A stretch of DNA of 64,000 bases from Mobula hypostoma. Taxonomy: Eukaryota. Shown piece after piece: positions 40,201 to 46,200 of this stretch (positions are counted from its first letter, which is position 1; each line of letters opens with the position of its first letter). The notes below the pieces were generated by a model, which had not been told where the DNA came from, made no database searches, and saw only the letters and a list, made by a program, of their open reading frames with translations. Made by a program: the position numbers and the translations under genes. The DNA is taken from positions 52,578,001 through 52,642,000 of the forward strand of contig NC_086108.1 in NCBI RefSeq assembly GCF_963921235.1, read 5' to 3'.

Positions 40201-43200
40201 ACTGGTTGCAACCAGATGGTGACTTTATTATAGAGATCAGCCATTTCACAGCAGATCCAGGATGGAACTATGATTTGAGAGGGAAAAAAATACCATGAGA
40301 GATCTACCATCCCTGTCTACCTATAAAGTAAATTCTCTCCCTTTGCAGAGGATGGTATTTAACTGTTAAAGCTTTCTGAACAAATTTCAATCACTCTTAT
40401 TGCAAACTTAAATCTCTTGGAAACCAAAACCTTCTACTACAAATGTGAAAATAGTTCAATGGAATGTCATACAAACTTGGTCACCATTAATAATTACAGT
40501 AGTTGAGTCTATCAAAGCCTATGAAATGTGGTAATATTAATAACAAGTTGTAAATGCAATGGGGTCATACAACTAGATCTCAGATTTAAAAAAAACTATT
40601 ATTATGCCTAAAGGGGTCTGCAACTTTGTATGAACTAAATCAGGCTAAGCCAAACTAGTGATTACTATGACACTCACTGAGGCAACTAGGCATTGGGTAA
40701 CACACAAACTGGGTATGGACACTTTAGCCCATAGATTCTGCAAAAAATTCTCCCACAAAGCCTAACTTGATCTGGGTCTGACTTGGAATCTCCTAAATTT
40801 GAAAAAGTAGAATTAGAGACGATGTTCAAGACTTCCTGGAGTACATTTATCCAACATTCCTTATGTGGCTCACACAACAGTACCGTGCGCTACCTTCTTA
40901 GTTGGCAATCGTCCCGTTAACGTTTGTAAGAAACTTGTACTCTCGGTATGCGATGACATGCGATTACTTCGATCCATAGCCTATGGAGTGGAATGAATGT
41001 TGGCAACAGATTGGTGATGGAAGACGAGGCACAAATGAACATATTAATTTCAACACACAGCAGTTGGAAGCACATAATGGCTGCAATGAAATTAAAACCT
41101 GAAGTGATTGTAGTTTCACATCCCTAACAAGGGTTATCAACGTTTATCCCTGGAAGTAAGACTACAGCAGATCAAGGCCTTAACGTGTTTAAGACCTACC
41201 ATGTGTTTTACACAAAGTTGTTTTTAATTGAAAATGTTAATCATCTTTCAAAGGGGTGGATAATCAAGGCATAGTAATTTTTGTATAAGTTCCCTACCAA
41301 TACACAACCAAATACTTCTTTATCATTTTCCTTGCTTGTTCTGGGTTGAGTCTATCATCTTCTGATTAATTTTGGTGTCAATCTAATTTTATTCTTTCTC
41401 TCTCAGTTCAGCTAGATCCAATAAGCAGTATTTTTAAAAAATAAAACACACAGATAATCCTCCTTTTCTCTCACCTCCAATCCCATTTGCTCTATATCAA
41501 ACTTTCTAGAACTTGCTTTAATAATACTTCTATAGTAACTAAAACACAGCAGATACTGAAAATCTGAAATAAATTCAGGAAATACTTAACACTTTACTGC
41601 CCTTCTGCTCTCACCAAACTCTTCTTAACTAAGACAAGCATTCAACAAACCATTATCTATAAGTTCTGCAATCTGCACAAAATACCCTTAATAGACACAA
41701 CACCTTCCCTTCCTCTTCCAGTCTCTCAAAAAGACCAGTCTTTCTCACTTCTTGATGCTCCTTCACCTCCAACAACCGTCCCCTTCTCACATCATTTTCT
41801 CCACTAATCATCCTCCTAGCAGTGTCTACCTTCACCCAACCCTCACTCCACCTCAGCCCACTTACCTTTTTGCTGTCTGCCTCCAGTGGTCATCCACCTG
41901 TCACTCTCAATTCCACCCCTTTCCATCCCCTACCTGCCTCCATTTGCCCGTCATCCTTCACCCCTCCTCAGTTCTCTGATCACCTACTCTAGATCTCCTC
42001 TTCATAATGGCTGCCTTTCGTCTCCATTCTCTCAGTCCTGAGCAGGGTTCGATCCATGATACTAACAATTCCTTGCTCCCAACAGCTGCTGCCCAACCCA
42101 CTATGTGCCTCCAGCAAATTGTTGGTGCTCCAGATTCCATCATCTACACTTTTATGTCTCATTGTTTTCTCTTCCCCAGTTCTGACTTAAAACAATCTCA
42201 TTTAAAATGCTGCCTGTTTCCAGCATTTTCTGTTTTATTTTTTCCCCAAATTTCCAGTATCTGCATTGTTTGCTTTTCAGATATGACTGGACATTTACAC
42301 CCTCTCTTAGACAGTCCCTACAAGCATATGTATCACCTGAACTCCAGTGGTCTTTACTCTACCAGAGACATCCCCTTTGCCTCCATCCTTCCCCCATTTC
42401 CATAACTTAAAAACTCCATAGCTTGTTTTTCCATATTTCCTGTTCTGATGTAAAGCCATTATCCCTGAAACATAAACAACAGGAATTCTGCAGATGCTAG
42501 AAATTCAAGCAACATACATCAAAGTTGCTGGTGAACGCAGCAGGTCAGGCAGCATCTGTAGGAAGAGGTGCAGTCGACGTTTCAGGCCGAGACCCTTCGT
42601 CAGGACTAACTGAAGGAAGAGTGAGTAAGGGATTTGAAAGTTGGAGGGGGAGGGGGAGATCCAGAATGATAGGAGAAGACAGGAGGGGGAGGGATAGAGC
42701 CGAGAGCTGGACAGGTGATAGGCAAAAGGGGATACGAGAGGATCATGGGACAGGAGGTCCGGGAAGAAAGACAAGGGGGGGGGTGACCCAGAGGATGGGC
42801 AAGAGGTATATTCAGAGGGACAGAGGGAGAAAAAGGAGAGTGAGAGAAAGAATGTGTGCATAAAAATGAGTAACAGATGAGGTACGAGGGGGAGGTGGGG
42901 CATTAGCGGAAGTTAGAGAAGTCGATGTTCATGCCATCAGGTTGGAGGCTACCCAGACGGAATATAAGATGTTGTTCCTCCAACCTGAGTGTGGCTTCAT
43001 CTTTATAGTAGAGGAGGCCGTGGATAGACATGTCAGAATGGGAATGGGATGTGGAATTAAAATGTGTGGCCACTGGGAGATCCTGCTTTCTCTGGCGGAC
43101 AGAGCATAGGTGTTCAGCAAAGCGGTCTCCCAGTCTGCGTCGGGTCTCGCCAATATATAAAAGGCCACATCGGGAGCACCAGACGCAGTATATCACCCCA

Positions 43201-46200
43201 GTCGACTCACAGGTGAAGTGATGCCTCACCTGGAAGGACTGTTTGGGGCCCTGAATGGTGGTAAGGGAGGAAGTGTAAGGGCATGTGTAGCACTTGTTCC
43301 GCTTACACGGATAAGTGCCAGGAGGGAGATCAGTGGGGAGGGATGGGGGGGACGAATGGACAAGGGAGTTGTGTAGGGAGCGATCCCTGCGGAATGCAGA
43401 GAGAGGGGGGAAGGGAAAGATGTGCTTAGTGGTGGGATCCCGTTGGAGGTGGCGGAAGTTACGGAGAATAATATGTTAACATACACTAAGCACATCGTTC
43501 CCTCCCCGCCTCTCTCTGCATTCCGCAGGGATCGCTCCCTACACAACTCCCTTGTCCATTCGTCCCCCCCATCCCACCCCACAGATCTCCCTCCAGGCAC
43601 TTATCCGTGTAAGCGGAACAAGTGCTACACATGCCCTTACACTTCCTCCCTTACCACCATTCAGGGCCCCAAACAGTCCTTCCAGGTGAGGCATCACTTC
43701 ACCTGAGTCGACTGGGGTGATATACTGCGTCCGGTGCTCCCGATGTGGCCTTTTATATATTGGCGAGACCCGACGCAGACTGGGAGACTGCTTTGCTGAA
43801 CATCTACGCTCTGTCCGCCAGAGAAAGCAGGATCTCCCAGTGGCCACACATTTTAATTCCACATCCCATTCCCATTCTGACATGTCTATCCACGGCCTCC
43901 TCTACTGTAAAGATGAAGCCACACTCAGGTTGGAGGAACAACACCTTATATTCCGTCTGGGTAGCCTCCAACCTGATGGCATGAACATCAACTTCTCTAA
44001 CTTCCGCTAAGGCCCCACCTCCCCCTCGTACCCCATCTGTTACTCATCTTTATGCACACATTCTTTCTCTCACTCTCCTTTTTCTCCCTCTGTCCCTCTG
44101 AATATACCTCTTGCCCATCCTCTGGGTAACCCCGCCCCCCTTGTCTTTCTTCCCGGACCTCCTGTCCCATGATCCTCTCGTATCCCCTTTTGCCTATCAC
44201 CTGTCCAGCTCTCGGCTCTATCCCTCCCCCTCCTGTCTTCTCCTATCATTTTGGATCTCCCCCTCCCCCTCCAACTTTCAAATCTCTTACTAACTCTTCC
44301 TTCAGTTAGTCCTGACGAAGGGTCTCGGCCTGAAACGTCGACTGCGCCTCTTCCTACAGATGCTGCTTGGCCTGCTGCGTTCACCAGCAACTTTGATGTA
44401 TGATCCCTGAAACATTAAATGTTTCCCTTCCACTGTTGCTGTCTGACCTAGTAGGTATTTCCAGCATTTTCTGTATCTTCAGCCAAATACATTATCAATC
44501 TTTTCTCTTCCTCCTTAATTCCTTAATCCAAACCAGAACTTCTAAACTGTAAAATTTTTTGCCTGTCTCAGTTTTTACTTCCACTTACCAGGAACATATA
44601 ACTTGGAAAATCATTGTATGGTGAGCAGAGTCAGCACAATTTTACTGATAGTAACGTTTTTGTCAGCATAACGAGCACAACAGACAGGGAAATTGGCTGG
44701 ATGTACAAGCAGTGAATTTTCAAAGACATTCATATCAGAAATAATCCACACTCTTTCCTGCAACTCGATTTTGAGGTTTACGTCTTTTTATCTTTAACAC
44801 CATCCCAAGGTCTGGTATCATCTCCTTTGGTGATAATAAAACAAGCTGCTAGCGGACAGTATTTGACCAAGGCCAACAACATAGCTTTCTTGAATTCATC
44901 CCTGTTGGTTTTCTATAGATTTGTAATCTGGAGAATATGTATATATTTAAATTCTGCAGTGGTGAGATGCTCCTAAACACACAGAGATGCTGGATAATGT
45001 GACAAAATAAATCATGCAATTTTTGTGATTTTTCCCTCAATGATGGTAATGGATGACAAATGTATATGCTGCATGAGCAATGTTTAATACCCCTTGAGTT
45101 TAAATAATGTCTATTAAGGCAACTATAATAAAATTACTCTCTTCTTTCAAGAACATGAATTAATTCCAGAAGAGCACTGTACACCACTGAAGTGAGTTAG
45201 AGAAATACCTGGAGCATTGCACACCATTTACATGAGTCAGGTTTGAGACCATGTCCCCAACAAGCACTGGTACATATACAATATACACTGGTACATATAC
45301 TTGCAAGTTCAGAAAAATTTCAACATTTTGCGGAACAGTACAAGTAGACATAAATTAATTTACTGAATATACAATGAAACATATTTCAGAATTAAGTAAG
45401 GATTGCTACTCGGCCTATAACCAGAAATTCATAATTGTGACAATACATACATTTGAAACATATGCAATCATGTCTTTACGTACCATGTATCTCATGCATT
45501 TTAATAACATGCACAGGCACTTAGGCTTAAAGCTATGGGAAATGGCTGAAAAAAAAGATGGCTGATAACTTTACAAGAAATAAATTAATCATAGGCAAGC
45601 ACCACTGAAACTCAAAGGCTTTGTCTAAAGTAAATGAAATAAACAAAGAATGAGAGATGGAAGAAAGGGAAAGAAAACCGATTTGTAAAATAATATCCTA
45701 AAAGAGATATATTAGCATCTGAAACAACCTGCATCACTTCAGTGCTTGATCTGGGGGGGCTTCTCCATGGGACAGTTGGGTCACCAGCATTAACCCAGGA
45801 ATTGGAACGATCTAGTCCCTAAGCAGGTGAACGAAGCAAAGGGAAAAGCGAATTTAAACTATTTAGCTGGATATTCCCTAAATTTCTCCAAAAGCATACA
45901 AGTTACAAGGAAATTAAATTTGTATAAGTCCATCTCAGATTAATCTAATAAAGATATATTTTTCTCCCATCCTCATCTCAAGATATTGATCGTTTCTAGT
46001 GTATGATTTTACACAACTGGGAATAGTCGCTCTTTATTTTTGACTGTGAAGGTTGAAGGTAAAGAGCAACAAAGCAGAATTACATAACTTAATGCTGTGA
46101 ATTACAAGCACTACTGCTGTAATGCCCAGAAGTATACACTTTCCAGCCTGGGCCATTAGACAATGATCAGAACAATGGCACTGACTTTCGCCTTTTTACC

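What the first reader, a model, noticed from the sequence alone, without database searches (positions are those of the whole stretch)
42461..44415. 1.9-kb Penelope palindrome with twin hammerhead ribozymes inside a DOCK7 intron
Seen: two near-identical ~919-bp inverted arms around a ~52-bp spacer containing a foldback scar (tatgtt|aacata), all inside one 13-bp TSD, so a single insertion event. Each arm has a GIY-YIG coding segment and a complete minimal hammerhead (CUGAcGA...GAAAC-GUC, stems I and II pairing, tiny palindromic stem III). Known: PLEs carry such minimal hammerheads, usually active as dimers, and form inverted or tandem pseudo-LTRs. Inference: DOCK7 pre-mRNA would carry one sense ribozyme together with its own antisense copy in a ~0.9-kb hairpin. 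This could be a self-silenced ribozyme and an ADAR/Dicer substrate, about 1.3 kb downstream of a probable cassette exon.
Basis: partly seen in the sequence, partly recalled or inferred. Interest (0 to 1): 0.75.

Follow-up and report, generated by a model that had tools for sequence, protein, structure and literature searches.

The report
Back-to-back Penelope insertion in ray DOCK7
This 1.9-kb mirror-image sequence in an intron of a ray's DOCK7 gene is one insertion of two back-to-back, broken ends of a very common Penelope-type jumping gene, absent from a close relative; the layout is already described, and its two ribozyme motifs are likely passive cargo that the hairpin is predicted to mask.

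Summary
Observation confirmed. Two 919-nt inverted arms (23 substitutions, two 2-nt indels) lie inside a 13-bp duplication. One 7,629-nt contig of a relative about 1.3% diverged holds the site empty with a single 13-mer, so this is one insertion. Both outer junctions occur in short-read contigs; the centre was not seen bridged. The element is a 5'-truncated, Neptune-type Penelope-like retroelement of a likely devil ray. One arm has the 39-nt tail, the other lacks it: the head-to-head, one-tail layout already published. Two older hairpins of this layout lie in the same window, and this scan noted such palindromes many times before, in this and other genomes. Both arms trace back to the same 5' nucleotide, which favours one RNA copied from both nicks (inferred). 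The hammerheads are minimal; the sense copy is predicted to be locked by its antisense arm, and no intact sense partner was found in the window. ADAR editing is plausible but ordinary and untested; no support for a regulatory role. The cassette exon is ancient and alternatively spliced in other vertebrates. Curiosity: the target is an older hammerhead remnant.

The parts
42461..42473 (.). Left copy of the 13-bp target-site duplication
   Evidence: Exact match to 44403-44415; single copy in organism B contig
42474..42512 (-). 39-nt 3' 'tail' of the element, on the left arm only
   Evidence: Arm alignment; 30-40-bp one-sided tail described in PMC8557442 and PMC11167929
42571..42608 (-). Minimal type I hammerhead motif, left arm; sense in DOCK7 pre-mRNA; predicted cut after 42576
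   Evidence: no Rfam hit
42474..43477 (-). Left arm: 5'-truncated 3' end of a Neptune-type Penelope-like element, 1004 nt with tail
   Evidence: family sequence diverges after 43477 (loose ends)
42903..43475 (-). Open C-terminal fragment (190 aa): CX4CxxC linker, GIY-YIG endonuclease with CCHH; no start, no RT
   Evidence: 93% identical to P0001
43432..43471 (-). 40 nt of element sequence without a partner in the right arm
43472..43483 (.). 12-nt central palindrome: last 6 nt of the left arm and their reverse complement, i.e. both arms reach the same 5' nucleotide
   Evidence: loose-end consensus at 43477
43484..44402 (+). Right arm: second 5'-truncated copy, tail-less, frameshifted at 43703/4
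   Evidence: family contigs carry the two missing letters (loose ends at 43704-5)
44307..44344 (+). Minimal hammerhead motif, right arm; antisense in DOCK7 pre-mRNA
44403..44415 (.). Right copy of the 13-bp target-site duplication
   Evidence: X1 contig 44377-47300 crosses this junction without other letters
42427..42473 (+). 5' part of an old, decayed element end with a hammerhead remnant, split by the insertion
   Evidence: Empty-site model aligns to the young element end, score 86 against at most 71 in 500 mononucleotide shuffles
44416..44479 (+). 3' part of the same old element end
   Evidence: weak nhmmer hit E 0.89
45729..45818 (-). DOCK7 90-nt cassette exon, 1313 nt upstream in the transcript
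   Evidence: spliced-in junction contig in run X5; included in 20 and skipped in 17 of 120 listed homologues
40894..40980 (-). Next DOCK7 exon (87 nt), 1480 nt downstream in the transcript
   Evidence: exon-sized contig in X5
46971..47146 (-). DOCK7 exon before the cassette exon

Best explanation
This is one insertion of two head-to-head, 5'-truncated ends of a very high-copy Penelope-like retroelement (Neptune type by its endonuclease) in a DOCK7 intron, likely made when the element's enzyme nicked both DNA strands 13 bp apart and copied one RNA from both nicks, and it is likely neutral cargo whose ribozyme motifs do not cut. Steps: (1) shown: one event with a 13-bp duplication, empty in a relative. 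(2) Inferred: the top-strand nick primed cDNA at the outer start site (arm with the 39-nt tail), the bottom-strand nick at the inner start site (arm without it). (3) Inferred: both cDNAs ran about 1 kb to the same RNA 5' end and were joined head to head; one arm lost 40 nt next to the joint, during error-prone joining or later, as perfect palindromes are unstable. (4) Shown: both arms have since gathered private changes. (5) Predicted: in DOCK7 pre-mRNA the antisense arm is made first and pairs with the sense arm, giving a long duplex that ADAR would probably edit, as for other inverted repeats, and that is removed with the intron. Odds: ordinary inverted PLE insertion 0.95; no selected function 0.9; two nicks and one RNA rather than snap-back or two RNAs 0.5.
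For: Empty site: the same 7,629-nt contig of run X6 (organism B) covers 44403-47300 at record 1665-4558 and 40700-42473 at record 4546-6311; the 13-nt overlap is the duplication. X13 (organism C) and X17 (B, other study) have contigs that leave the window's sequence at the duplication, which fits empty sites but shows one side only. X1 crosses both outer junctions and X5 the left one with no other letters. Abundance: 201,017 contigs of X1 were laid on the left half (not a copy number). Layout is published: adjacent inverted 5'-truncated copy and one-sided 30-40-bp tail (PMC8557442); head-to-head repeats with palindromes at the junction and 8-10-bp duplications (PMC3846280). A purified PLE protein cut and extended both strands, started at two sites that delimit the tail, and did not need ribozyme cleavage (PMC11167929). 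Two older one-tail hairpins lie at 20038-20248 and 52154-52361. One template: shared 5' breakpoint; both arms carry the same letter at 42696 and 42702, where 54% and 53% of laid X1 depth reads another; outside the inner 120 nt, non-CpG arm divergence is 1.5% against 1.33% between species flanks, p 0.62. Decay in both arms: read by hand against homologues and family contigs, at least 6 changes are private to the left arm and 8 to the right; 11 of 25 differences were not polarised. Masking: 2-kb fold 94% paired, core paired to its antisense; local duplex -96.7 against -12.2 kcal/mol for the motif alone.
Against: No contig bridging the centre was among those listed, so the inner length rests on the assembly. 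Raw arm divergence (2.5%, 23 of 917) exceeds the A-B flank divergence (1.33%, 62 of 4672), p 0.011; p 0.17 without the 5 CpG-type changes: two source RNAs, or an insertion older than the species split and lost or excised in B, are not excluded. The in vitro work is on a Poseidon-clade element, not Neptune. Snap-back gives the same shared breakpoint. The two shared subfamily letters are common alleles and weak evidence. The insertion looks homozygous in two samples of organism A (no contig break at the duplication), which drift explains but which does not exclude selection. The window holds only part of DOCK7, so a dimer partner elsewhere is possible.
Confidence: 0.8

Rival explanations
1. Snap-back: one cDNA, primed at the left nick, folded back at its 3' end and copied itself; the endonuclease or repair then resolved the hairpin at the tail boundary and joined it to the right target end.
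For: The 6-nt inverted word at the joint; PMC3846280 reads such junction palindromes as self-priming; PMC8557442 ascribes the tail to endonuclease resolution.
Against: A zero-loop 6-bp fold-back followed by a 40-nt skip is awkward within one strand; the copy must stop 39 nt short, at about the place that a second start site explains directly (PMC11167929); both nicks leave usable 3' ends ending in AT.
Confidence: 0.3
2. Two different RNAs were copied, one from each nick, and joined; the shared 6-nt word is chance or a preferred stopping place.
For: Raw arm divergence exceeds species divergence, p 0.011. An older single copy at 57740-58651 starts within about 40 nt of the same place, hinting at a truncation hot spot.
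Against: An exact 6-nt inverted match at the breakpoint is about 1 in 4096 for one register (arithmetic, post hoc); the excess divergence disappears without CpG sites and the inner cluster.
Confidence: 0.15
3. Functional element: the hairpin silences a live ribozyme, feeds ADAR or Dicer, and tunes the nearby DOCK7 cassette exon.
For: Strong predicted duplex with ten helices of 32-116 bp; run X5 has intronic contigs up to and across the left junction and spliced DOCK7 contigs; hammerhead boxes intact in both arms; Penelope RNA is heavily edited in lizard and frog.
Against: Lineage-specific and absent from B; the cassette exon is included or skipped in other vertebrates that lack this insert; both arms are in one intron, 1.3 and 1.5 kb from splice sites, so pairing loops out no exon; no strong acceptor-like signal in the insert by a simple scan; single minimal hammerheads were inactive in vitro; the lone motif's best fold pairs the core with the cut site; both arms decay.
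Confidence: 0.07
4. Assembly artefact from fold-back reads or a collapsed repeat.
For: Centre not seen bridged; such structures trouble assemblies (PMC8557442).
Against: Arms differ at 25 places and in their ends; both outer junctions are in short-read contigs and face outward; the duplication matches the empty site in B.
Confidence: 0.03

Closest known systems
Inverted insertion unit of endonuclease-bearing Penelope-like elements (PMC8557442 Fig. 2 legend and text; Pen2a_Av and relatives of Adineta vaga, PMC3846280; passages read)
   Same: 5'-truncated copies head to head, one-sided 30-40-bp tail, short palindrome at the inverted junction, one target-site duplication around the whole unit.
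   Different: Here both arms are short 3' ends of about 1 kb with no full ORF between them; the duplication is 13 bp (8-10 bp in the rotifer examples read); an empty orthologous site is shown.
Neptune clade of EN+ PLEs (features as given in PMC8557442)
   Same: C-terminal GIY-YIG with CCHH and the CX2-5CxxC linker; hammerhead in the terminal repeat; longer shark and ray homologues carry RT upstream (P0005, RVT_1 E 9e-5, below cut-off).
   Different: No RT at this locus, so placement by RT tree was not tested.
Minimal hammerheads of metazoan PLEs (PMC4209133, parts 1-2 of 4 read)
   Same: Both catalytic boxes, short stem I, extra nucleotide before stem II, palindromic minimal stem III; that paper also notes pairs on opposite strands 100-700 bp apart.
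   Different: G.U instead of the conserved G-C at 10.1-11.1; the two motifs are 1.7 kb apart and cannot dimerise with each other in one transcript.
Poseidon of Anolis carolinensis in vitro (PMC11167929, parts 1-2 of 4 read)
   Same: Both strands cut and extended at AT-rich sites, two start sites bounding the tail, ribozyme dispensable; one of the two nicks here falls within ATT.
   Different: Different clade; joining of two cDNAs was not reconstituted there.
Edited inverted repeats in pre-mRNA (PMC5625713, PMC10636886; passages read)
   Same: Long near-perfect duplex from neighbouring inverted repeat copies; Penelope named as heavily edited in lizard and X. tropicalis.
   Different: Editing not shown at this locus.

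Membership tests
EN+ Penelope-like elements | GIY-YIG endonuclease with CCHH motif (two Cys between GIY and YIG) | tested here: met
   PF01541 above cut-off in left arm; CxxC between the two motifs and two His seen in alignment
EN+ Penelope-like elements | Telomerase-like RT in the same ORF | tested here: inconclusive
   Absent here through 5' truncation; RVT_1 hit below cut-off in 1 of 3 longer homologues scanned
EN+ Penelope-like elements | Direct or inverted pseudo-LTR structure, optional 30-40-bp tail on one end, target-site duplication | tested here: met
Neptune clade | C-terminal endonuclease preceded by CX2-5CxxC linker (absent in Penelope/Poseidon) | tested here: met
   CX4CxxC before the domain, stop codon after it; criterion from PMC8557442
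Neptune clade | Placement in RT phylogeny | not tested
   No RT at the locus; no reference PLE set was fetched
Naiad/Chlamys PLEs | N-terminal endonuclease and no canonical hammerhead | tested here: not met
   Endonuclease ends the ORF and a hammerhead follows
Minimal type I hammerhead | CUGANGA and GAAA boxes, U16.1 and H17 | tested here: met
   Both arms
Minimal type I hammerhead | Stem I of 4-5 bp; stem II closed by G10.1-C11.1 | tested here: inconclusive
   Stem I 4 Watson-Crick pairs plus G.U; stem II closed by G.U or 3 bp in another register
Minimal type I hammerhead | Self-cleavage as a dimer | not testable with these tools
   Needs an assay; two-copy cofold did not give the active fold
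Rfam hammerhead families | Covariance-model match | tested here: not met
   0 of 13 matches at E up to 5 are hammerheads
Non-LTR retrozymes | Non-coding tandem direct repeats each with a hammerhead | tested here: not met
   Arms are inverted and carry coding sequence; definition from preprint 10.64898/2026.07.22.740005
ADAR or Dicer substrate | Clustered A-to-I changes or 21-22-nt RNAs from the locus | not testable with these tools
   Only contigs are served and family copies swamp the locus

The most novel reading that the evidence does not exclude
The element homes on its own fossil hammerheads: the enzyme-RNA complex recognised a decayed hammerhead copy in the DNA, nicked the top strand one base from the position matching the ribozyme's cut, copied one RNA from both nicks, and sealed the centre with an error-prone step that left a 40-nt skip and a cluster of transversions (5 of 8 within 112 nt of the joint). 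Old element ends would then be preferred landing pads, and each palindrome a record of a two-nick, one-RNA reaction.
Probability: 0.1. Interest if true: 0.55.

Novelty: new member of a known kind. Interest (0 to 1): 0.17.

Why it matters
As biology of DOCK7 it probably does not matter: it is one of very many such insertions. Its value is as a clean specimen. The empty site in a close relative fixes both nick positions; the one-sided tail and the shared 5' breakpoint bear on the open question of how Penelope-like elements build inverted arms; and two species that differ by this insert offer a natural comparison for whether a 0.9-kb intronic duplex shifts a conserved cassette exon. If landing in old hammerheads proved systematic, it would reveal a targeting rule for this class.

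Tried and rejected
No whole genome is held for the window, so no genome-wide count of palindromes or target sites. Rfam: only hairpin-driven microRNA matches below their cut-offs, rejected as by-products of the palindrome. Metagenome scan with a hammerhead pattern: 0 matches. No RNA holder listed on record; X5 and X17 are guessed RNA, X5 shows exon-bounded contigs. Editing: X5 lists no T>C places on the left half and the same kinds of change as DNA run X1, but family contigs outweigh the locus by thousands of times and the samples differ, so this says nothing. X17 does not cover the exons, so inclusion in B could not be compared. Contig depths at the cassette junction (7.5) and flanking exons (44.5, 49.9) hint at mostly skipping but depth is a poor measure. 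At 97% likeness could not polarise right-arm changes. Whether the G.U in stem II is the family's common form could not be read (49 rows table 3 not shown). A-to-G bias between arms as a trace of edited template: none (3 A/G, 1 G/A, 11 C/T in element sense). Look-ups of earlier findings by sequence and by relatives gave nothing. Paper searches listed no description of this ray family among the rows shown (20 of 196); this is not a claim that none exists. No supplements were read; those of PMC4209133 may list cartilaginous-fish motifs.
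Full report
Observation. The window holds two inverted arms of 919 nt (42513-43431 and 43484-44402) that differ at 23 of 917 aligned columns and by two 2-nt indels. An exact 13-bp direct repeat bounds the block at 42461-42473 and 44403-44415. Read in the element's sense, the left arm (- strand) is longer at both ends: 39 nt at its 3' end (42474-42512) and 46 nt at its 5' end (43432-43477). 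The centre is a 12-nt perfect palindrome at 43472-43483. Contigs of other family copies part from the window's sequence right after 43477 in X1, X6 and X13, so the left arm is plain element sequence up to there, and the next 6 nt are the reverse complement of its last 6. The right arm can thus be read as starting at the same nucleotide and lacking the next 40 nt.

One event, and real. Of 24 runs listed I laid five. One 7,629-nt contig of X6 (organism B) covers 40700-42473 and 44403-47300 with record ranges that overlap by exactly 13 letters: the site is empty in B. B differs from the window by 62 substitutions in 4,672 flank letters (1.33%). Contigs of X13 (organism C) and X17 (B, second study) leave the window's sequence at the duplication, one side each. 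In organism A, X1 crosses both outer junctions and X5 the left one without a difference or a break. No listed piece bridges the centre; the tables are cut, so this stays open, but 25 differences between the arms rule out a simple fold-back read.

What the element is. The left arm is open for 190 residues and scores above the Pfam cut-off for GIY-YIG. It has a CX4CxxC linker, the CCHH pattern and a stop after the domain, the signs given for Neptune-type Penelope-like elements in PMC8557442 (passages). The best of 15 homologues is 93% identical and from Mobula hypostoma, the next from Hypanus and sharks, so the host is likely a devil or manta ray. RT is missing here; one of three longer homologues scanned has a weak RT match. 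The right arm is frameshifted and has lost an Arg kept in 7 of 7 homologues. X1 alone laid 201,017 contigs on the left half: a very large family, though this is no copy number.

The layout is known. [quoted passage not shown] PMC3846280 (passages) describes head-to-head repeats with palindromes at the junction inside one duplication and reads them as self-priming. PMC4209133 (parts 1-2 of 4) notes minimal hammerhead pairs on opposite strands. In this window two older hairpins, 20038-20248 and 52154-52361, have the same one-tail shape. Earlier notes of this scan report the same thing many times in this and other genomes; they are unchecked and are not counted as support.

How it likely formed. 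PMC11167929 (parts 1-2 of 4) shows a Poseidon protein cutting and extending both strands, starting at two RNA sites that bound the tail, with ribozyme cleavage dispensable. That fits an arm with the tail primed at the top nick and an arm without it primed at the bottom nick; both primer ends finish in AT and one nick lies in ATT. The shared 5' breakpoint and two shared subfamily letters favour one template. Raw arm divergence (2.5%) is above the species divergence (p 0.011), but 5 changes are CpG type (p 0.17 without them) and 6 lie within 120 nt of the centre; outside that zone non-CpG divergence is 1.5% (p 0.62). So identical arms at about the time of the A-B split fit, though two templates or loss in B are not excluded. 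Five of 8 transversions lie within 112 nt of the joint (chance 0.001 for that window, 0.023 for any window of that size, chosen after the fact), and the three of them that I could polarise are in the arm that lost 40 nt; this may mark error-prone joining. Short or absent spacers make palindromes unstable (PMC7999016, passages), so the loss could also be later. Snap-back remains a fair rival.

The ribozymes. Both arms have the catalytic boxes, a 5-pair stem I and a palindromic four-letter stem III. Stem II closes with G.U where PMC4209133 finds G-C highly conserved. Rfam has no hit, the motif folds no better than shuffles, and its best fold pairs the core with the cut site. DOCK7 runs on the - strand, so the antisense arm is made first; the 2-kb fold is 94% paired and holds the sense core in the duplex, -96.7 against -12.2 kcal/mol locally. 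The two motifs cannot dimerise with each other, and older - strand copies in the window have broken or missing cores. Single minimal motifs were inactive in vitro. Masking is therefore predicted but needs no purpose.

The host gene. The intron is 4,748 nt, 2,806 without the insert; the insert lies 1,313 nt after a 90-nt exon and 1,480 nt before the next. X5 has a contig joining the upstream exon to the 90-nt exon. Among 120 listed DOCK7 homologues 20 include the matching segment, 17 skip it, 67 continue otherwise and 16 lack the anchor, so the cassette is far older than the insert. PMC6788855 (passages) reports an ESRP2-repressed human DOCK7 exon 23; that it is this exon is recalled, not shown. 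Both arms sit in one intron, so pairing loops out no exon. Editing of such duplexes is general and is reported for Penelope in lizard and frog (PMC5625713, PMC10636886, passages): likely here too, untested, and ordinary.

A curiosity. The empty site aligns with the element's own end (score 86, best of 500 shuffles 71): the insert split an old hammerhead remnant, and the top nick falls one base before the position matching the ribozyme's cut. Such remnants cover about 2% of the window. The one other copy with a clear duplication (57728 and 58652, 12 bp) showed no remnant at its target in the nhmmer scan. One case noticed after the fact does not show targeting.

Verdict. Real, single, lineage-specific, and an ordinary member of a described kind. 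Interest 0.17.

Noticed in passing
window 20038-20248 and 52154-52361: Two older short head-to-head hairpins of Penelope-like ends (77% and 73% arm identity), each with the tail on one arm only; a 9-bp duplication core at 20025 and 20246.
   Followed up: partly
window 57740-58651: Older single-arm copy of the same family (72% identical), with tail and a 12-bp duplication (57728, 58652); its 5' end lies within about 40 nt of the 5' ends of both palindrome arms, hinting at a preferred truncation zone.
   Followed up: partly
window 42427-42473 and 44416-44479: The target is an old element end; the top-strand nick is one base from the position matching the hammerhead cut.
   Followed up: partly
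window 43497-43595: Five of the eight transversions between the arms lie within 112 nt of the centre.
   Followed up: partly
window 42022-42148, 53328-53479, 20562-20644, 19632-19667: Further decayed Penelope-like ends; one lies 300 nt from the insertion in the same intron.
   Followed up: no
window 160-1733, 13547-14975, 31213-32830, 37900-38799: Long inverted repeats around transposase-like reading frames, resembling Tc1-type DNA transposon remnants (label recalled, not tested).
   Followed up: no
window 55872-56121: A 250-nt imperfect palindrome (85%), not examined.
   Followed up: no
window 48894-49341: A decayed GIY-YIG-like reading frame followed by a weak match to the element end: probably a much older Penelope-like copy.
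   Followed up: no
P0003, P0009, P0014, P0015: Public ray and skate gene models named as kinase, chitinase-domain, receptor or NLR proteins match this element's frame, suggesting exonised or mis-joined Penelope sequence.
   Followed up: no
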